Virus record (IMG/VR): IMGVR_UViG_3300045988_179251
Location: 1 to 42,146 of that record
Length of the DNA: 42,146 bases
Reading direction: 5' to 3' (one strand)
Source of the DNA: a virus
Both the position numbers and the translations under genes were made by a program. The notes under the pieces are model-generated. The model was given only the letters and a program-made list of their open reading frames with translations, was not told the DNA's origin and did not search any database. The first letter of the stretch is position 1, and the number at the start of each line of letters is the position of its first letter. Positions 29,815-39,509 of the stretch are shown here, in pieces.

Positions 29815-31378
29815 TGCACGATGGTTCCGCTATCTGATCCCGCAGAATCGCCTCCACGAGATCATTATCCACAATCGCACCTTCCGTCCGGAATTTCACG
29901 CCCCGACGAAGAATATACTGCCGATACTCCTCCACGCTCCGCGGAGACAAATTCTTCGCCTCCAAAACCTGATACAAACGAGTCTCAGTCGGCGGATTAC
30001 TACTGAAATCGTCCACCATACGCGTCAAGTCCGGGACGAAAACATAGTCGATCATTTTCAGCGCGTCGGGCAGCCAGAAATCGACGGCCAGACTGAAAGC
30101 TTTCCGAACCGCAGACGATGACACGCTCATCTGCTGCTCGAAGAGAGACAGAATAGCGGCCACGCGCATAATATGATTCCCCATGCGATCAATGACCGCT
30201 TGTACCGCCCGCTGGAAAGGCGACTCACGGGCCGCCTCCCCGGCCCAGGCCCGCACCGTTTCTACCCAAACATTCCGGGCCGACTCGGTCACGGTCATAG
30301 TCATTGGCGTGTTGACAGGCCAAAACTCGGTGGCACACGTGACCGTGCCACGGAATTCATGCTGCATCATACCCAACATTGTCGAAATGCGCTCGGAAGC
30401 ATGCTCAACAAAACCATCCCCACCATGCGCGCTCAAGTCATTGTTGGTGACCCATCCGAAAGACGACGGATCGGACCGACGGTCCTCCTCATCCAAGGCG
30501 AAAAGAATGCGCGGGCCCCACCCAGTCTCAAACAAAGACTGAGACATGCTATCGACTACGTCGCCGAGAATACCGGTGCCGCAAAAAGCAAGAGAATGAG
30601 GAACCCTCTCACTGTCCGCACGCTTCACACCATCGTCACCGACGCGCACAGACTCGACCGTTTTGCCCGAGTAGACGTCGGTCAGGAATCCGATGAGACC
30701 ACTACGATAACCCTCCCCCTGTGACGCGGAATACATGTTCTGCAATTCGTCTACAAACATAATAGACGCACCGCCAGGACGCTGCGCCATCCGCAAATTC
30801 AGACCTTCAGCCGTAACATTAGACCCGAACAAAACATTCGCCATAAGAGACCGCTCACACGGGCTATTACCAATAGTATTCAACAAATCCTTACGATCAG
30901 CCTCAAACTCGGTGATGCGATTATTGATATCGTCCCGCTCCGTGCGATATTCCTCAATATCAATACGCCCACTCCGCCTTTCCAGAGATTCCAGGCGACG
31001 GTACAGCATGCGGAGTGCTAAATCACACTCCCGCACAGCCGCCAAAGACGCCGACGAATCCCACCTGAACGCGCCCACACAGTCGTCGAAAAAACTACGC
31101 ACCAAAGACTGAGCCGTCGTCTTCCTCGACAAGGTGGACGCACCCAGGCAGTGCGAGTACAAGGTCAACGGCACCATGTTCTGCGCGTTCGCAGACAAAT
31201 GAGTCCTCGCAGACAGCGGCGCGGACACCATCGTCAAGAAAGTCGTCCACAGGAAACGAGGAGGCGTCTCCGGTGACCTGGACTGCAAATAGCCGACAAT
31301 CCTGTCAGCGAACCAATCATAGTGCGCTTTCCCCGTCGGTGGCAGAAACTCGTAATCCGTAATCCTCTCAACGCTCAA
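29807..31378 (-). CDS. DUF3987-like replicative helicase-associated protein
   Basis: 523 aa. It has a P-loop-like LGASTLSRKT and FVDELQNM. It is adjacent to and overlaps the prim-pol gene, which is the usual pairing. Confidence 0.6.
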   Translation of the reverse strand: MSVERITDYEFLPPTGKAHYDWFADRIVGYLQSRSPETPPRFLWTTFLTMVSAPLSARTHLSANAQNMVPLTLYSHCLGASTLSRKTTAQSLVRSFFDDCVGAFRWDSSASLAAVRECDLALRMLYRRLESLERRSGRIDIEEYRTERDDINNRITEFEADRKDLLNTIGNSPCERSLMANVLFGSNVTAEGLNLRMAQRPGGASIMFVDELQNMYSASQGEGYRSGLIGFLTDVYSGKTVESVRVGDDGVKRADSERVPHSLAFCGTGILGDVVDSMSQSLFETGWGPRILFALDEEDRRSDPSSFGWVTNNDLSAHGGDGFVEHASERISTMLGMMQHEFRGTVTCATEFWPVNTPMTMTVTESARNVWVETVRAWAGEAARESPFQRAVQAVIDRMGNHIMRVAAILSLFEQQMSVSSSAVRKAFSLAVDFWLPDALKMIDYVFVPDLTRMVDDFSSNPPTETRLYQVLEAKNLSPRSVEEYRQYILRRGVKFRTEGAIVDNDLVEAILRDQIAEPSCSE

Positions 31379-35215: not shown

Positions 35216-35290
35216 TATACTCTTAAAAGAGTACTAGAATTAGACACTGTCTAACGCAACTAGACGGTGTCTAATTATGGAACACGTGTT
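35216..35290. promoter_or_regulatory. Cluster of operator-like palindromes in an AT-rich patch
   Basis: TATACT at 35216-35221. TACTCTT-AA-AAGAGTA at 35218-35233. TTAGACA-C-TGTCTAA at 35240-35254. CTAGACGGTGTCTAA at 35260-35274. AACACGTGTT at 35281-35290. Confidence 0.45.
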
Positions 35291-35401
35291 ATAACGTAAT
35301 TAATGTTCGATGGTGAACATGGTGATCGTTAACAGTGAACAGTGTGTTTGTGGTAGAAGTAACACACGCCGCATTAGGTGGACGCGCACACGAACACAGT
35401 A

Positions 35402-35461
35402 GGCGGCTGTCGTGCTACGTGCGTGCTCGCAGGGCTGCGCGCGCACTACACGACACCCGCC
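35402..35461 (+). promoter_or_regulatory. Conserved nested hairpin, copy A (followed by a polypurine tract 35467-35530)
   Basis: The outer stem is GGCGGCTGTCGTG/CACGACACCCGCC. The inner stem is GTGCGTGC/GCGCGCAC around the loop TCGCAGGGCT. The core is shared with copy B. Confidence 0.55.
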
Positions 35462-35633
35462 ATACCAGAACAAAGAAAGAAAGGAAGGAAGAAAAGCGGA
35501 AGAGGAAGGAAAAGAGGAAGAAGAACAAGGAGTAGTGTTAGACGGTGGAGGCGCTCGTCTCGCTGACGCTGCGACGCGCCACCACCTAACACCAACAAGA
35601 AAGACGAGAAGAAGAGAGCAGCAGTGAGCAGCA

Positions 35634-35978
35634 GTGAGCAGAACAAGCACACGCGAACACAAACAATTCAGAAAACAAGTACTCGCCAGAGCACAAGCCA
35701 TGGGCATCACACACTGCCCAGCATGCGGAGTAAAACTCCAATACAACAATGATGGACAACGCAAACTCAACAGTGCCGAGGCAGACCACATAATCCCAGC
35801 ATCACTAGGCGGAACCAACCACCCAGACAACGGCAGAGTATTATGCGCCAAATGCAACAGCAGACGAGGCAACGGACGAGGAGGCAAAGGCAGAGCACGC
35901 CACTACCAAAAAAACAAGGAGGAAAGAGACAGGCTACCCATCGCAGTCATGCCCACACGACACAGTGACACATGGTAG
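35634..35978 (+). CDS. HNH endonuclease (packaging-associated type)
   Basis: CPACG ... ADHIIPASLGGTNHPDNGRVLCAKCNSRRGN is a clear HNH motif with a zinc-binding CxxC pair. It lies upstream of the terminase. The GTG start is uncertain. Confidence 0.8.
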   Translation: MSRTSTREHKQFRKQVLARAQAMGITHCPACGVKLQYNNDGQRKLNSAEADHIIPASLGGTNHPDNGRVLCAKCNSRRGNGRGGKGRARHYQKNKEERDRLPIAVMPTRHSDTW

Positions 35979-36069
35979 ACACACACCACAGCCATTCCAA
36001 CAAAGAGAAAGGCGGGGAATAGAACAGAACAAAAGAGAAGACAAGACAAAGCAACAAGAAGAACAGGAT

Positions 36070-36126
36070 GGTGTTCGGGGATAACGTGCGTGCTCGCAGA
36101 GCTGCGCGCGCACTACCCCGAACACC
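36070..36126 (+). promoter_or_regulatory. Conserved nested hairpin, copy B (followed by a polypurine tract 36131-36175)
   Basis: The outer stem is GGTGTTCGGGG/CCCCGAACACC. The inner stem and loop are the same as copy A (loop TCGCAGAGCT). Confidence 0.55.
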
Positions 36127-37271
36127 AATAACAAGAAAGGAAGAGGAAGAGGAAGACGGAGAAGACAAGCAACGAGACCATCACACCCGTCGCACCACCG
36201 CCATTCCACAACAACACAACCCTGCCGCATTAACGCAACCCCAAACCAACAATGCTATGACAACAAACACAAAGAAGAGAGAGAAAAAAGAGAAACAAAC
36301 CACAATTCCACACACCACGACAACACACCCCCACCGCCCTTCTACAACACAACACCACACGTCACACCATAAGACAATGCGCACACCACAGTAAACAACA
36401 CGCACTGAAACACACGGCACACAATAGCGGTAGGCCGACAACAAACACCACCACCATCCACCCCCCACACGAACACTGCAACACACAAGACAGGAAAAGA
36501 GCAAGACAACACAAGAGGAACAAGACAATACGAAGGGGAAGCGGGACAACACGAGGTGCCGGCCCCGTTCCGAAACACCGGGCATCACAGCACACACCAC
36601 ACCCCGCCATCCAACGGGCCCACCACGCGAACGGAATGGGGACGCCAACATTCGAAAGGGGGACGCCAACACACGGACGGGGATACCAGTAACACAGCCG
36701 CCCTCCCATCACCATGCCACCCACCATCCGCCATGCCACCCCACCACCCACGACGGCCCCACCCACCACCACGACAAGGGGGGGGGCGATCGGAGGATAC
36801 CCCACCACACGAAGACCACGGACAGACACGCACCCGCACACCGCATCACCCGGCAACGAACAGCATACGACACGATCGCAGTACTGATGAGTACTGCACT
36901 GGGATGGGCGGGGCACGGGCCGGGCTGCACGCACTGGGCGGACAGCAGCAGCACACCCACCGCCATTCCACAACAGCACACCGATGAGAGATGGACACCA
37001 TCCGCTGTCCCACCTCGCACTGATCGCGTTCACACAACCAACGAACAACAATGATCAACAATGACCAACAATCAATGTTCAATGATTGAACAACAATCAA
37101 TGAACGATGAACATGATGATGATCAATCATCATCATGATGAACACAATGAACATGATGATGAACACATGATGATGATGTGATGCATGACATGCATACCAA
37201 TACCATGCACCATGCATGGTGCCAACGCATGCCGCAAAGGCAACACAACGCACAAACGCACAAATGCATAA

Positions 37272-37303
37272 AAATGTTATAAAACAAAAGAAATGTTATA
37301 AAA
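37272..37303. repeat. Two AT-rich 13-mers AAATGTTATAAAA (37272-37284 and 37291-37303)
   Basis: Exact direct repeat inside the most AT-rich stretch of the window (about 37255-37330). Confidence 0.6.
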
Positions 37304-37549
37304 ACATGCAAAAAAATTCAAAGGCACGAACCAAACAACGGCGTTCAAAAAACCATGGCAACATTTCGAGGCGAACACAAAGGGGGCCCCAACACCATAA
37401 GGGATCCCTTAAACGTGGGACCCACATCACAAAACAAGGCGGAGACCAGACAAAACGAGACGCACACCACACAATTCATGTGATGGGGGCCACTCCCCCT
37501 CCCCCATCCGGCCGCGAACACCCCGAAGGTCTGCCCATCTCTCCCTGCT

Positions 37550-37688
37550 TGTGGAAAACCCTGTGGATAACTCCAGTAACCCAGACCACAATGTGACCAT
37601 CATCATGTGGAAAGCTCCCAAACCTGTGGAAAACCCTGTGGAAAACTCTCCAGGTTGTGGACAACCCTGTGGAAAACCTTGTGGACAA
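37550..37688 (-). promoter_or_regulatory. Array of eight DnaA-box-like 9-mers, all in one orientation (candidate origin, DnaA-titration site or terminase recognition repeats)
   Basis: + strand TGTGGAAAA at 37550, 37625, 37637 and 37668. TGTGGATAA at 37562. TGTGGAAAG at 37606. TGTGGACAA at 37656 and 37680. Reverse complements are TTTTCCACA, TTATCCACA, CTTTCCACA and TTGTCCACA. Confidence 0.6.
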
Positions 37689-37730
37689 CCTCACCAGACG
37701 TGACCGACACCACCGCATATAATAGAAAAC

Positions 37731-38012
37731 ATGACAACCCACACAAACACCACAATCACTGTATACGAACCAAACAGCCCCACCCCCATAACCGACGCCA
37801 CAAACACAAACAACCCCACACTCATACGCCAAGCACTTGCACACAAAATCGCCACCGTCATAGACGACCCAAGAACAGGCGACACAGCACTCACAAAACT
37901 CACAGCACAACTCATACAAATCACAGACCAACTAGCCACCACACAAAACGAAAACACACACCCGGACACCACCGACATTCCAAACGAAACACAAACCTGG
38001 GACGGCATCTAA
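37731..38012 (+). CDS. Hypothetical protein in the small-terminase position
   Basis: 93-aa ORF ending 3 nt before terL. The central part (LIRQALAHKIATVIDDPRTGDTALTKLTAQLIQITDQL) looks helical and protein-like. There is no clear Shine-Dalgarno and the region is compositionally biased. Confidence 0.35.
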   Translation: MTTHTNTTITVYEPNSPTPITDATNTNNPTLIRQALAHKIATVIDDPRTGDTALTKLTAQLIQITDQLATTQNENTHPDTTDIPNETQTWDGI

Positions 38013-38015
38013 ACA

Positions 38016-39509
38016 ATGAGCGAAAAACACCTATCCGAAATCGCCGCCCACCTCACCCTCCCAGAAAACATCACACACACCGCCTGGCCGCCAGTCAAAC
38101 ACCGCCTCCAAGAAATGCAATACCCCCTCGACGTCTGGCAACAAGACTGGCTCAAAGCAATCCTCGCCAAAAGAAACGACGGCCACTACGCAGCCAGCAT
38201 CGACGGAATCCAAGCATCCATCCCCCGCCAGGTCGGCAAAACATACACAATCGGCGGCCTCGCATTCGCACTCGCCACCCTCCACCCAAACTACTTCATC
38301 CTTTGGACCGCACACCGCACACGCACCGCAGACGAAACATTCAACGACATGAAAGGCATGGCACAAATACCCAACATCGCCCCATACGTAAACAAAATAC
38401 GGCAAGCAAACGGACAGCAAGCCATCCTCTTCAACAACGGATCACGCATTCTCTTCGGCGCCCGCGAAGGAGGATTCGGACGCGGATTCCACGGCGTCGA
38501 CATGATCCTTTTCGACGAAGCCCAGATCCTGGGCGCCGCCGCACTAGACGACATGATCCCCGCCACAAACACGGCGCCAGACCCGCTCATCATCAAAATC
38601 GGGACACCACCAAAACCAAAAGACCCGTCCGAAGCTTTCAGCGAATTCCGCAACCTCGCTTTGCAAGGCGAAATAAAAGACGGCCTCTACCTCGAACTAG
38701 CCGCCGACTACAACGCTAACAGCGACGACAGAAAACAATGGGAAAAAGCCAACCCATCATACCCTCGCCGCACACCCGAATCCGCCATTCTAAGAATGCG
38801 CAGACAACTCGGAGAAGAATCATTCCGACGTGAAGGCCTCGGAATCTGGGACCGCGCCAACGACAGACTCGCAATCGACCCAGTCGCCTGGAACACCGCC
38901 ACAATACGCCCAGAAAACACCCCCAGCGGCATGCGATGGTGCGCCGCAATCCGATTCGCACCCGACGGATCAACATGCGCCCTAGCCAGAGCAGGACACA
39001 AAGCCAACACGCCCACACACGTCGAACTATGCACCCACCAAGGCGTCCGCCGCATGAATGAAGGCACGCAATGGATCATCGACTACATTGCGGACACAAA
39101 AGACAGATGGGCACAAATCATCGTAGACGGAAAATACGGTGCCGGAGACACAATCGAAAGACTGAGAGCCATCGGAGTACGCCCCCAAGTCATCATCACC
39201 CCCACGATCACGCAAATCATAGACGCTTACAGCATGCTAGACGCCTCGTTGCGCGAAAAAACGATCACACACCTAGACGATATGGAATTGCGGACTGAGG
39301 CCGCGTCGGCGACGCCGCGCCCAATCGGAACATCAGGTGGGTGGGCGCTACAAGCCCCGCCAGGCGCCACCGTAGCCGGCCTAGAAGCCTGCACGCTCGC
39401 AATGTGGGCCGCGCGCACAACAAAAAGAAGGCCACGTTACAAACCTTATGATAAAATCGAAAACGCCAATAGTAACACTGATCGTGGCGGCGGAGTACTG
39501 TTCCTATGA
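38016..39509 (+). CDS. terL: Terminase large subunit
   Basis: 497 aa. The Walker A-like motif is IPRQVGKTYT and Walker B is MILFDEAQIL. It is followed by a nuclease-domain-sized C-terminus and directly precedes the portal gene. Confidence 0.9.
   Translation: MSEKHLSEIAAHLTLPENITHTAWPPVKHRLQEMQYPLDVWQQDWLKAILAKRNDGHYAASIDGIQASIPRQVGKTYTIGGLAFALATLHPNYFILWTAHRTRTADETFNDMKGMAQIPNIAPYVNKIRQANGQQAILFNNGSRILFGAREGGFGRGFHGVDMILFDEAQILGAAALDDMIPATNTAPDPLIIKIGTPPKPKDPSEAFSEFRNLALQGEIKDGLYLELAADYNANSDDRKQWEKANPSYPRRTPESAILRMRRQLGEESFRREGLGIWDRANDRLAIDPVAWNTATIRPENTPSGMRWCAAIRFAPDGSTCALARAGHKANTPTHVELCTHQGVRRMNEGTQWIIDYIADTKDRWAQIIVDGKYGAGDTIERLRAIGVRPQVIITPTITQIIDAYSMLDASLREKTITHLDDMELRTEAASATPRPIGTSGGWALQAPPGATVAGLEACTLAMWAARTTKRRPRYKPYDKIENANSNTDRGGGVLFL

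What the first reader, a model, noticed from the sequence alone, without database searches (positions are those of the whole stretch)
37550..37688. Array of eight same-orientation DnaA boxes in a phage genome, just upstream of the terminase genes
Within 139 bp the + strand carries TGTGGAAAA four times, TGTGGACAA twice, TGTGGATAA once and TGTGGAAAG once. Their reverse complements are TTTTCCACA, TTGTCCACA, TTATCCACA and CTTTCCACA. Seven of the eight fit TTNTCCACA. They include the exact E. coli consensus (TTATCCACA) and the Streptomyces/Mycobacterium-type consensus (TTGTCCACA). Four adjacent pairs (boxes 1-2, 4-5, 6-7 and 7-8) are spaced 12 bp apart, and the conserved context is yTGTGGAnAACyC. 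I recognised no DnaA or DnaB homologue in the phage. The array could recruit host DnaA to a phage origin alongside the prim-pol/DUF3987 genes, or titrate DnaA. It could instead be the small-terminase recognition repeat set (cosB/pac-like) that happens to resemble DnaA boxes.
Basis: partly seen in the sequence, partly recalled or inferred. Interest (0 to 1): 0.75.

Follow-up and report, generated by a model that had tools for sequence, protein, structure and literature searches.

The report
DnaA-box array beside phage cos end
Eight binding-site motifs for the bacterial replication initiator DnaA sit 18 bases inside the physical left end of this phage genome, where phage lambda keeps its packaging-recognition sites, so the phage probably uses host DnaA at its packaging or late-gene start rather than at a replication origin.

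Summary
Eight same-strand 9-mers lie at 37550-37688; seven fit TGTGGANAA, against 1.15 expected in the whole window. Four pairs are 12 bp apart.

The new facts concern position.
- The phage's left cohesive end is at 37532, 18 nt before box 1. Eight independent metagenome contigs start exactly there, one carries an Illumina adapter fused to that base, and the ends of isolated relatives align there.
- The array fills the non-coding leader between cos and a leaderless small-terminase gene (ATG 37731, conserved TATAAT at 37718). This is the lambda cosB position.

The boxes match DnaA boxes including their flanks: CCCTGTGGATAAC is the E. coli oriC R1 13-mer. Relatives keep 5-9 boxes. Members of the same terminase clade carry none, one, two or four boxes, in either orientation. 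Phages with unrelated terminases (L073, L078, BillyTP, Klebsiella Przondovirus, T5-likes) carry the same pairs next to ends or packaging genes.

This points to a host-universal reader (DnaA) rather than the small terminase. Nothing oriC-like adjoins the array: no DnaA-trios, and the only AT-rich tract is 240 bp away across cos.

Best reading (about 0.45): a DnaA-bound platform at cos and the late-operon start. The function is untested. It is a new variant of a known kind.

The parts
35634..35978 (+). HNH endonuclease gene, partner of the terminase in this type of cos packaging module
   Evidence: Pfam HNH/HNH_5 (E 1e-10) and many PHROG HNH families. In the isolated relatives Spartoi, MrSmee, G4 and BillyTP the HNH gene is the last gene before the right end.
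37485..37499 (.). Conserved GGGGG-CCACT-CCCCC inverted repeat flanking cos on the right-end side
   Evidence: Nearly invariant in 27 relatives. An equivalent GGGGG-N4-5-CCCCC element lies about 35-45 nt before the right end of Spartoi, MrSmee, G4 and BillyTP.
37521..37531 (+). Inferred cohesive-end overhang (CCCCGAAGGTC, 3' extension) = cosN
   Evidence: Two fold-back chimeric contigs (L014, L056) have inverted arms ending at 37521, and the top-strand end is at 37532. Relatives G4/B22/E6/Doucette have experimentally defined 12-nt 3' extensions at the homologous place (PMC5831693). The length of 11 nt is inferred, not measured.
37532..37549 (+). Left end of the virion DNA (5'-TGCCCATCTCTCCCTGCT), 18 nt before box 1
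   Evidence: Eight independent IMG/VR contigs start exactly at 37532 (L006, L013, L016, L033, L036, L051, L057, L061). L023 has the Illumina adapter tail GCTCTTCCGATCT fused to T37532. ATCTCTCCC aligns with bases 5-13 of the left ends of MrSmee and other isolates.
37550..37570 (+). Boxes 1-2: TGTGGAAAA ccc TGTGGATAA (12-bp pair)
   Evidence: Invariant in all relatives. CCCTGTGGATAAC at 37559 is identical to the E. coli oriC R1 13-mer.
37606..37614 (+). Box 3: TGTGGAAAG (one-off; TGTGGAAAA in the relatives)
   Evidence: Missing only in L021, through a 43-nt deletion.
37625..37645 (+). Boxes 4-5: TGTGGAAAA ccc TGTGGAAAA (12-bp pair)
   Evidence: Box 4 is invariant in the 27 relatives. Box 5 is TGTGGA(A/T)AA in 25 of them and carries single-base defects in L029 and L037.
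37656..37688 (+). Boxes 6-8: TGTGGACAA ccc TGTGGAAAA cct TGTGGACAA. This is the copy-number-variable distal part.
   Evidence: Relatives carry 0-4 boxes here through unit gains and losses. The spacer from the last box to the -10 keeps a near-constant length (about 28-30 nt) in all but L045, which has a 12-nt insertion.
37718..37723 (+). TATAAT -10 element of a probable leaderless promoter for terS
   Evidence: CATATAATA is conserved in 27 of 28 sequences amid variable flanks (L054 reads TATACAATA). It lies 7 nt before the ATG and there is no Shine-Dalgarno sequence. There is no -35, so the E. coli-type scan finds nothing. Promoter function is inferred.
37731..38012 (+). Small-terminase-like gene (93 aa)
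   Evidence: PHROG 1459 terminase small subunit, E 1.5e-4. It aligns with gene 1 or 2 of Spartoi, MrSmee, G4 and AbbyDaisy. It has 4 K/R against 11 D/E and pI 4.4. The AlphaFold model shows two helices only, at low confidence.
38016..39509 (+). Large terminase gene
   Evidence: Pfam Terminase_6N; PHROG 9 and 2. It is 46-50% identical to the TerL of Rothia phage Spartoi, Arthrobacter phages MrSmee and AbbyDaisy, and P. freudenreichii phages.

Best explanation
The eight 9-mers are genuine DnaA-box-type sites. They lie in the 199-bp non-coding leader between the left cohesive end of the phage DNA (37532) and the leaderless small-terminase gene (37731). This is the position that cosB holds in phage lambda.

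I propose that host DnaA reads them, not the phage small terminase. DnaA would oligomerise on the head-to-tail 12-bp pairs and build a nucleoprotein platform on the packaging-initiation side of cos. There it would act as a host accessory factor for terminase/HNH assembly, as IHF does at lambda cosB. Through the promoter-proximal box, held about 28-30 nt upstream of the -10 in most relatives, it may also influence the packaging/late promoter. As a by-product, each genome copy sequesters 5-9 DnaA molecules.

**Shown:** the motifs, their excess over chance, their conservation, the physical end 18 nt away, the gene order, and the recurrence of the same motif at ends or packaging genes of unrelated phages.

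**Inferred:** that DnaA binds in vivo, and what the bound complex does.
For: 1. **Sequence identity with DnaA boxes.** Five boxes fit TTWTNCACA and two are TTGTCCACA. Within the family, variation falls at box position 3, the degenerate position of the consensus. The flanks match oriC: CCCTGTGGATAAC equals E. coli R1 and TGTGGATAACTC equals R4. The R1 segment is found once per chromosome in 5417 of 5426 E. coli genomes, between mnmG and mioC.
2. **Position.** The left end at 37532 is fixed by 8 contig starts, an adapter fusion and homology to the ends of isolates. Relatives have 12-nt 3' extensions (PMC5831693).
3. **Conservation.** The block 37490-37580 and boxes 1, 2 and 4 are invariant, and box 5 nearly so, while neighbouring spacers vary. 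Total box number ranges from 5 to 9.
   - L172 (TerL 40% identical, homologous TerS) has four perfect boxes between its cos-like site and terS, in the opposite orientation.
   - Spartoi, MrSmee, AbbyDaisy and G4 have one TTTTCCACA at +19..+29, also inverted.
   - L073 has TerL and TerS unrelated by BLAST. It carries 11 same-orientation boxes between its contig end and its first packaging gene.
   - L078 has 12 boxes between a phrog_4102 TerS and its TerL.
   - BillyTP, whose TerS is annotated as a 182-aa protein of different size and whose TerL is split, has three boxes (one truncated) 50-85 nt before its right end.
   - Klebsiella Przondovirus cp31 has a pair inside its 114-nt terminal repeat.
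   - T5-likes have pairs separated by 3 bp (10.1101/866236).
5. **Excess in viral contigs.** The 18-mer TGTGGAAAACCCTGTGGA occurs in at least 79 unrelated viral loci of 30-71% GC. My rough estimate of the chance expectation is about 2.
6. **The TerS-like protein is an unlikely site-specific reader.** It has 4 K/R against 11 D/E and pI 4.4. The model shows only two helices, at low confidence.
7. **Enrichment upstream of TerL.** In 59 clade relatives the box density in the 700 bp upstream of TerL is 0.85 per kb, against 0.12 per kb in the rest of the loci.
Against: - No binding data exist.
- The sister clade (TerL 61% identical, L228-L242) has no DnaA box. It carries TTTTTTCCCAAGG at the homologous spot, and other relatives carry TTTTTCCCG or TTTCCGCA. 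So the ancestral cos-proximal element may be a terminase or bending element (T-run + CC) that only sometimes coincides with a DnaA box. DnaA therefore cannot be essential for this terminase type.
- A same-orientation array with 12-bp spacing is also what a ring-shaped small terminase would wrap.
- DnaA is scarce compared with hundreds of phage genomes late in infection, which fits poorly with a stoichiometric packaging cofactor.
- The host is unknown, so its DnaA-box preference could not be compared.
- Association of arrays with packaging genes in unrelated contigs rests on a handful of loci. Other arrays lie beside helicase, methyltransferase or tail genes.
Confidence: 0.45

Rival explanations
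1. Lambda-like cosB proper. The repeats are recognition sites of the phage's own small terminase, or of the terminase/HNH holoenzyme, whose oligomer wraps the 12-bp-spaced units. The resemblance to DnaA boxes is coincidental.
For: - The array lies exactly in the cosB position: 18 nt from the left end, between cos and terS.
- The array is same-orientation.
- Copy number is variable but boxes 1-5 are fixed.
- Relatives have a related but not always DnaA-like element (T-run + CC[A/C]A) at a fixed +17..+30 from the nick, as expected for part of a terminase recognition site.
Against: - The same 9-mer with the same flanks occurs with TerS proteins that are only 16-22% identical, and with terminases unrelated by BLAST or of a different TerS family (L073, L078).
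- Orientation is inverted between the window and L172 or the Spartoi type.
- The boxes are absent from the 61% sister clade.
- The match to the DnaA consensus extends to the flanks.
- The TerS-like protein is acidic with no evident DNA-binding domain.
Confidence: 0.15
2. DnaA sink and/or DnaA-dependent switch of the late promoter. The array titrates host DnaA as phage copies accumulate, shutting down host initiation. Alternatively, DnaA occupancy upstream of the leaderless terS promoter activates or represses the packaging/structural operon, tying late expression to DnaA availability. Packaging itself would not be involved.
For: - There are five to nine consensus boxes per genome, comparable in box number to the chromosomal DnaA titration locus datA (knowledge).
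- A conserved TATAAT lies 29 nt after the last box. That spacing stays within a base or two in most relatives although box number varies.
- There is no recognisable phage transcription factor, sigma factor or repressor among the ORFs scanned.
- DnaA is a known transcription factor (knowledge).
Against: - Titration does not explain why the boxes sit next to cos in several lineages.
- MrSmee, L172 and L073 have no promoter-like element between the boxes and the first gene.
- Relatives with a single box would titrate little.
Confidence: 0.2
3. DnaA-dependent phage replication origin. After the cos ends join, DnaA bound to the array opens nearby DNA and recruits the host helicase and replisome. 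The phage encodes no DNA polymerase.
For: - The box cluster resembles oriC and plasmid origins.
- An 87% AT 40-mer lies at 37268-37307.
- There is a long non-coding region and strong strand asymmetry around 35.3-39.5 kb.
- No polymerase was found among the ORFs.
Against: - No DnaA-trio run lies on the 3' side of the boxes.
- The AT-rich tract is 240 bp away with the cos cleavage site in between.
- The phage has its own primase-polymerase and DUF3987/SNF2 helicases at 27-31 kb, which normally define their own origin.
- The same box pairs in T5-like and T7-like phages lie in terminal repeats, away from the mapped origins (for T5; knowledge for T7).
- The cumulative GC-skew minimum is not at the array.
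Confidence: 0.12
4. Binding sites for another phage-encoded protein, either a late activator or an origin-binding domain of the primase-helicase (P4 alpha-like iterons).
For: Direct repeats upstream of an operon are typical of activator sites or iterons. Many window ORFs have no assignable function.
Against: The same motif occurs in phages that share no such protein. No HTH or regulator domain was detected. The unit is 12 bp and no initiator gene is adjacent.
Confidence: 0.05

Closest known systems
Phage lambda cosB (R3-I1-R2-R1) with the host factor IHF
   Same: A set of repeated protein-binding sites in the short non-coding stretch between the cos nick site and the start of the small-terminase gene, on the end that is packaged first. 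A host DNA-binding protein takes part (IHF at I1).
   Different: Lambda R sites are 16-bp sites read by the winged helix of gpNu1 and have no resemblance to DnaA boxes. Lambda has 5' overhangs and no HNH partner. Here the repeats are DnaA-box 9-mers, the small terminase is a 93-aa acidic protein, and the proposed host factor is DnaA.
DnaA-box pairs in the injection-stop (iss) region of T5-like phages (Davison, bioRxiv 10.1101/866236)
   Same: About eight DnaA or DnaA-like boxes in a phage non-coding region near a genome end. They are arranged in pairs separated by 3 bp (12-bp spacing), are conserved across relatives, and are judged not to be the origin.
   Different: The T5 boxes sit in inverted repeats several kb inside a 10-kb terminal repeat, and about half are non-consensus. 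Their proposed role, stalling injection on membrane-bound DnaA, is itself untested. Here the boxes are all in one orientation, 18 nt from a cohesive end and upstream of terS.
Chromosomal DnaA-box clusters outside oriC (E. coli datA, B. subtilis DnaA-box clusters)
   Same: Clusters of several high-affinity boxes that bind DnaA without initiating replication and affect DnaA availability.
   Different: Those are chromosomal regulatory loci, and datA needs IHF and promotes ATP hydrolysis. The element here is on a virulent-looking phage and tied to cos.
oriC and plasmid/P1 origins with tandem DnaA boxes
   Same: The same 9-mer with the same flanks (identical 13-mer to E. coli R1). Closely spaced same-orientation boxes favour DnaA oligomerisation.
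   Different: There are no adjacent DnaA-trios or unwinding element, no initiator gene or iterons, and a cos cleavage site lies next to the boxes.
HNH-terminase cos packaging modules of HK97-like and actinobacteriophages (Spartoi, MrSmee, G4/Doucette)
   Same: The gene order is HNH ... cos ... terS-terL-portal. TerL and TerS are homologous. The left-end sequence is homologous (ATCTCTCCC), as is the GGGGG/CCCCC element. 3' extensions are present. A box-like element sits at +19..+29.
   Different: Those isolates have one box, inverted, or only a T-run + CC element, and their HNH gene lies 50-160 nt from the end. The window family has 5-9 boxes and a 1.5-kb T-poor spacer between HNH and cos.

Membership tests
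DnaA box (binding site of DnaA domain IV) | 9-mer matching TTWTNCACA (E. coli) or TTGTCCACA (actinobacterial) | tested here: met
   Five boxes are strict matches, two are TTGTCCACA and one is CTTTCCACA. There are 8 matches against 1.15 expected.
DnaA box (binding site of DnaA domain IV) | Flanking context as in high-affinity oriC boxes | tested here: met
   CCCTGTGGATAAC at 37559 equals E. coli oriC R1, and the ...AACTC flank equals R4.
DnaA box (binding site of DnaA domain IV) | Bound by DnaA | not testable with these tools
   Needs gel-shift, footprinting or ChIP with the host protein. The host is not identified.
Bacterial oriC-type origin (DnaA boxes + DnaA-trios + unwinding element) | Run of at least three DnaA-trios (3'-[G/A]AT-5') on the 3' side of a box pair | tested here: not met
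   The regex scan of 37200-37800 on both strands finds none on the correct side. The sequence left of box 1 is GC-rich cos DNA.
Bacterial oriC-type origin (DnaA boxes + DnaA-trios + unwinding element) | AT-rich unwinding element directly adjacent to the box cluster | tested here: not met
   The most AT-rich 40-mer is at 37268-37307, 240 bp away, with cos in between.
Lambda-type cosB | Repeated sites between the cos nick site and the small-terminase gene on the first-packaged end | tested here: met
   Left end at 37532, boxes at 37550-37688, terS ATG at 37731.
Lambda-type cosB | Sites are read by the phage small terminase and therefore co-vary with it | tested here: not met
   The same 9-mer accompanies TerS proteins that are 16-22% identical, or terminases unrelated by BLAST or of another TerS family. 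Orientation flips, and the boxes are absent from the 61% sister clade. Direct binding is not testable.
HNH-terminase cos packaging module | HNH endonuclease gene upstream of cos; terS-terL-portal downstream; defined ends with 3' extensions | tested here: met
   Gene content. The end is fixed. The 3' extension is inferred from fold-back junctions at 37521 and from relatives. The HNH gene is unusually far from cos (1.55 kb).
T5-type iss DnaA-box set | Box pairs separated by 3 bp | tested here: met
   Four pairs have a 3-bp spacer (preprint).
T5-type iss DnaA-box set | Pairs embedded in IRC/IRD inverted repeats inside a long terminal repeat next to first-step-transfer genes | tested here: not met
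   All boxes are in one orientation, and the genome has cohesive ends rather than a long terminal repeat.
Iterons of a plasmid or phage Rep initiator | 17-22-bp direct repeats next to the initiator gene | tested here: not met
   The unit is 12 bp. The neighbouring genes are the terminases. The primase/helicase genes lie at 27-31 kb on the other strand.

The most novel reading that the evidence does not exclude
Host DnaA is a packaging-site host factor. In several unrelated tailed-phage lineages, arrays or pairs of DnaA boxes form part of the cos/pac signal or of the terminal DNA. The lineages are this family, L172, L073, L078, BillyTP and Przondovirus terminal repeats. The universally conserved initiator would then do for these phages what IHF does for lambda, possibly coupling cos cleavage or late transcription to the host's replication state.
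Probability: 0.25. Interest if true: 0.85.

Novelty: new variant of a known kind. Interest (0 to 1): 0.62.

Why it matters
DnaA boxes are the most widely conserved protein-binding sites in bacteria. A phage that builds part of its packaging or late-gene control region from them would have a recognition element that works in any host.

If DnaA is shown to bind here and to affect cos cleavage or late transcription, three things follow.
- A new role would be added for the replication initiator.
- The same box pairs near the ends of T5-like, T7-like and actinobacterial phages would have an explanation.
- A simple sequence signature could be used to locate genome ends in metagenomic phage contigs.

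If the boxes turn out to be only a DnaA sink, that would still be a host-takeover device made of DNA rather than protein.

Tried and rejected
- **Coding repeat.** The array lies in a 50-aa ORF reading ...VENPVEN.... Rejected because relatives differ by 12-, 19-, 31- and about 43-nt unit gains and losses that break any frame.
- **Structured RNA or tRNA.** There were no Rfam gathering-score hits and no tRNA in the window.
- **Phage-encoded DnaA-like reader.** There is no Bac_DnaA_C or other DnaA/DnaB domain, and no HTH regulator, integrase or repressor, in 66 ORFs.
- **Contig ends as an assembler artefact of the repeats.** Rejected because eight contigs start at the identical base, one carries a sequencing adapter fused to it, and the position aligns with experimentally defined ends of isolates.
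- **Host identification through prophages.** Only two distant Leucobacter loci turned up in the GTDB representatives. The host remains unknown. An oral actinobacterium is likely, judged from the nearest isolates (Rothia and Arthrobacter phages) and the HMP-type sample ids.
- **E. coli-type promoter scan.** Nothing was found. The -10-only leaderless promoter is inferred from conservation.
- **TerS structure.** The model was low-confidence (pLDDT 54, two helices), so I ran no fold search.
- **TerS homologues.** The protein search found only near-identical proteins.
- **Literature.** Full-text searches found no report of DnaA boxes at a cos site. Only the T5 preprint is comparable.
Full report
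**1.

Reading 37200-38100 and a pattern search show eight 9-mers on the + strand. Their starts are 37550, 37562, 37606, 37625, 37637, 37656, 37668 and 37680. Four are TGTGGAAAA, two TGTGGACAA, one TGTGGATAA and one TGTGGAAAG.

TGTGGANAA occurs 8 times in the window against 1.15 +/- 1.18 in shuffles, and none of 100 shuffles reached 8. Seven of the eight lie in these 139 bp. The eighth is a lone TTATCCACA at 29865. Five boxes fit the strict consensus TTWTNCACA. The spacings are 12, 44, 19, 12, 19, 12 and 12.

**2. Genomic setting**

The window is a circularly permuted assembly of a phage of about 42 kb.
- Downstream of the array lie a 93-aa ORF (37731-38012; weak PHROG 1459 'terminase small subunit'), the large terminase (38016-39509), the portal and a VG15/MuF-like protein.
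- Upstream lies an HNH endonuclease gene (35634-35978), followed by 1.55 kb without a convincing gene.
- The replication genes (SNF2 helicase, primase-polymerase-like, DUF3987) are at 27-31 kb on the other strand.
- No DnaA, DnaB, integrase or repressor domain was found in 66 ORFs.

**3. A physical genome end lies 18 nt from box 1**

A search with the large terminase found 62 near-identical (93-98% TerL) IMG/VR contigs of about 42-43 kb. Half of them end within about 750 bp of the array. Random breakpoints would give about two such ends.

Mapping contig termini onto the window gave three results.
- Eight contigs with different SNPs, hence independent genomes, start exactly at 37532 (TGCCCATC...).
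- L023 carries the Illumina adapter tail GCTCTTCCGATCT fused directly to T37532.
- Two contigs (L014, L056) are fold-back chimeras whose inverted arm ends at 37521.

The nearest isolated phages by TerL (46-50% identity) are Rothia phage Spartoi, Arthrobacter phages MrSmee and AbbyDaisy, and P. freudenreichii phages G4, B22, E6 and Doucette. Their records are linear, with a TerS-like gene and TerL at the left end and an HNH endonuclease as the last gene. Their left ends, AGCGAT(A/C)T(C/A)T(C/T)CCC..., align with window 37533 onward through the shared ATCTCTCCC. Their right ends share the GGGGG-N4-5-CCCCC element found at window 37485-37499. For the P. freudenreichii phages the ends were determined experimentally as 12-nt 3' extensions (PMC5831693).

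So cos lies at about 37521-37532. The array occupies the non-coding leader between cos and terS, which is the position of lambda's cosB.

**4. Conservation within the family**

The 27 relatives that span the region were aligned with the window.
- The block 37490-37580 is almost invariant.
- Boxes 1, 2 and 4 are invariant. Box 5 varies only at the degenerate position, apart from single-base defects in two contigs.
- Box 3 is missing only in one contig with a 43-nt deletion.
- The distal boxes vary from 0 to 4 copies, giving totals of 5-9.
- Indels of 12, 19, 31 and about 43 nt rule out a coding repeat.
- CATATAATA (TATAAT at 37718-37723) is conserved 7 nt before the terS ATG in 27 of the 28 sequences, and there is no Shine-Dalgarno sequence. 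This suggests a leaderless promoter. The distance from the last box to the -10 stays within a base or two in all but one relative. An E. coli-type scan sees no -35.

**5. Are they DnaA boxes or something that resembles them?**

The resemblance goes beyond the 9-mer. The 13-mer CCCTGTGGATAAC at 37559 is identical to the R1 box of E. coli oriC, and the AACTC flank matches R4. I checked the recalled oriC sequence against 5,426 complete E. coli genomes. It occurs once per chromosome in 5,417 of them, between mnmG and mioC. Within the family, variation falls at box position 3 (A, T or G), the position that is degenerate in the consensus.

**6.

(a) *Within the same TerL/TerS clade*, box content is patchy and orientation flips.
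- L172 (TerL 40% identical) has four perfect boxes between a cos-like site and terS, in the opposite orientation.
- Spartoi, MrSmee, AbbyDaisy and G4 have one TTTTCCACA at +19..+29, also inverted.
- About 20 of 44 metagenomic relatives at 44-51% identity have one or two box-like 9-mers in this upstream position, about 14 of them with an exact TTTTCCACA.
- The 61% sister clade has none.
- The TerS-like proteins of these phages are only 16-22% identical.

(b) *Phages with unrelated packaging proteins* carry the same motif at ends or packaging genes.
- L073: contig end, 32 nt, 11 same-orientation boxes, first gene, TerL, portal. Neither its TerL nor its first gene product resembles the window proteins by BLAST.
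- L078: 12 boxes between a phrog_4102 TerS and TerL.
- Arthrobacter phage BillyTP: three boxes, one truncated, 50-85 nt before the right end, with a differently sized TerS and a split TerL.
- Klebsiella Przondovirus cp31: a pair inside the 114-nt terminal repeat.
- T5-like phages: pairs separated by 3 bp in the injection-stop region (10.1101/866236).

(c) *Excess in viral contigs.* The 18-mer TGTGGAAAACCCTGTGGA is found in at least 79 unrelated viral loci with GC from 30 to 71%. By my rough estimate this is far above chance. Some of these hits are coding (VENPVEN). Others are obvious box clusters in both orientations.

(d) *The window's TerS-like protein* has 4 K/R against 11 D/E (pI 4.4). It models as two helices with disordered ends, at low confidence.

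A protein conserved in all bacteria, DnaA, explains (a) to (c). A fast-evolving small terminase does not.

**7. Evidence against a DnaA reader**

At the homologous place the sister clade has TTTTTTCCCAAGG, and other relatives have TTTTTCCCG or TTTCCGCA. The element conserved across the whole clade is a T-run followed by CC at +17..+30. This may be a terminase-recognition or bending element that only sometimes equals a DnaA box. DnaA therefore cannot be essential for this terminase type, and the small-terminase reading keeps some weight.

Other box arrays in viral contigs lie beside helicase, methyltransferase or tail genes. The link to packaging is therefore a tendency seen in a small sample, not a rule.

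**8. Not an oriC-like origin**

- No run of DnaA-trios lies on the 3' side of the boxes.
- The DNA next to box 1 is the GC-rich cos sequence.
- The most AT-rich 40-mer (37268-37307) is 240 bp away on the other side of cos.
- The replication genes are distant and of the self-sufficient primase-helicase type.
- The cumulative GC-skew minimum is not at the array.
- In T5-likes the comparable boxes are away from the mapped origins.

**9. Most likely mechanism**

Host DnaA binds the consensus boxes and oligomerises on the 12-bp pairs. This forms a nucleoprotein platform on the packaging-initiation side of cos. The platform helps terminase/HNH assembly, in analogy to IHF at lambda cosB. It may also act on the leaderless terS promoter, and it sequesters DnaA as a by-product.

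The sequences, positions, conservation and cross-lineage recurrence are shown. Binding and function are inferred. The rivals are:
- terminase-specific cosB: 0.15
- DnaA sink or promoter switch without a packaging role: 0.20
- DnaA-dependent origin: 0.12
- another phage protein: 0.05

**10. Novelty**

Phage-borne DnaA boxes are known from P1 and plasmid origins, the lambda pR region (both from my own knowledge) and the T5 preprint. In full-text searches I found no report of a DnaA-box array in the cosB position or next to cohesive ends. I therefore rate this a new variant of a known kind. The interest is moderate to high because the same signature recurs at the termini of unrelated phages.

Noticed in passing
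window 35300-39500, strongest at 36000-37000: The + strand is extremely poor in T: 7% in 36000-37000, 8.5% in terS and 13% in TerL, against 21-23% elsewhere. The 1.56 kb between the HNH gene and cos keeps 8-12% T in all 17 relatives checked. Stop-free stretches overlap in several frames and differ between genomes, so it is not a conserved ORF. Isolated relatives lack this spacer. The bias may explain why the boxes here read TGTGGAAAA rather than TTTTCCACA.
   Followed up: partly
window 35417-35449 and 36084-36116: A 33-nt direct repeat, 97% identical (ACGTGCGTGCTCGCAG(G/A)GCTGCGCGCGCACTAC), flanks the HNH endonuclease gene. Each copy contains a GC-rich palindromic core.
   Followed up: no
window 37382-37390 and 37398-37411: GGGGGCCCC and a perfect 14-bp palindrome TAAGGGATCCCTTA lie 120-150 nt left of cos. 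The palindrome is conserved in nearly all relatives, and two relatives have it duplicated in place of GGGGGCCCC. It could be a site for a dimeric protein on the termination side of cos.
   Followed up: no
window 37260-37330: This is the most AT-rich stretch of the region (87% AT over 40 nt). It contains a direct repeat AAATGTTATAAAA twice.
   Followed up: partly
window 37037-37180 and 37591-37608: A run of short AACAATGA / ATGATGATGA repeats. One arm (37151-37168) is 89% complementary to 37591-37608 just before box 3, so this inverted repeat brackets cos.
   Followed up: no
window 35231-35283: A 23-nt inverted repeat (GTACTAGAATTAGACACTGTCTA / TAGACGGTGTCTAATTATGGAAC) lies in the 1.4-kb non-coding region between the leftward early genes and the HNH gene. 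It looks like an operator.
   Followed up: no
L073 (IMGVR_UViG_3300034073_002588), last 300 nt; L078 1750-1950: Two phages have terminase proteins that show no BLAST similarity to the window's (L073) or belong to a different TerS family (L078). They carry 11 and 12 DnaA boxes directly at their packaging genes. In L073 the boxes are in the same orientation between the contig end and the first gene. In L078 two opposed sets lie between terS and terL.
   Followed up: partly
PP978841.1 (BillyTP) 52920-52955; OX335378.1 (Klebsiella phage cp31) 47-67; MZ322018.1 (Blab) about 340-365: Consensus DnaA-box pairs or triplets lie within 20-350 nt of the physical ends of isolated phages from three unrelated groups. 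One of them is inside the 114-nt terminal repeat of a T7-like phage.
   Followed up: partly
L023, L014, L056, L066 (IMG/VR contigs): Public viral contigs retain sequencing-adapter remnants or fold-back chimeras at their ends. These are useful as markers of true DNA ends, but they are errors in the deposited sequences.
   Followed up: yes
window 29865-29873: A single perfect TTATCCACA lies in the first 70 nt of the DUF3987 helicase gene, about 50 nt beyond the end of the primase-polymerase-like gene. One such match is what chance predicts.
   Followed up: yes
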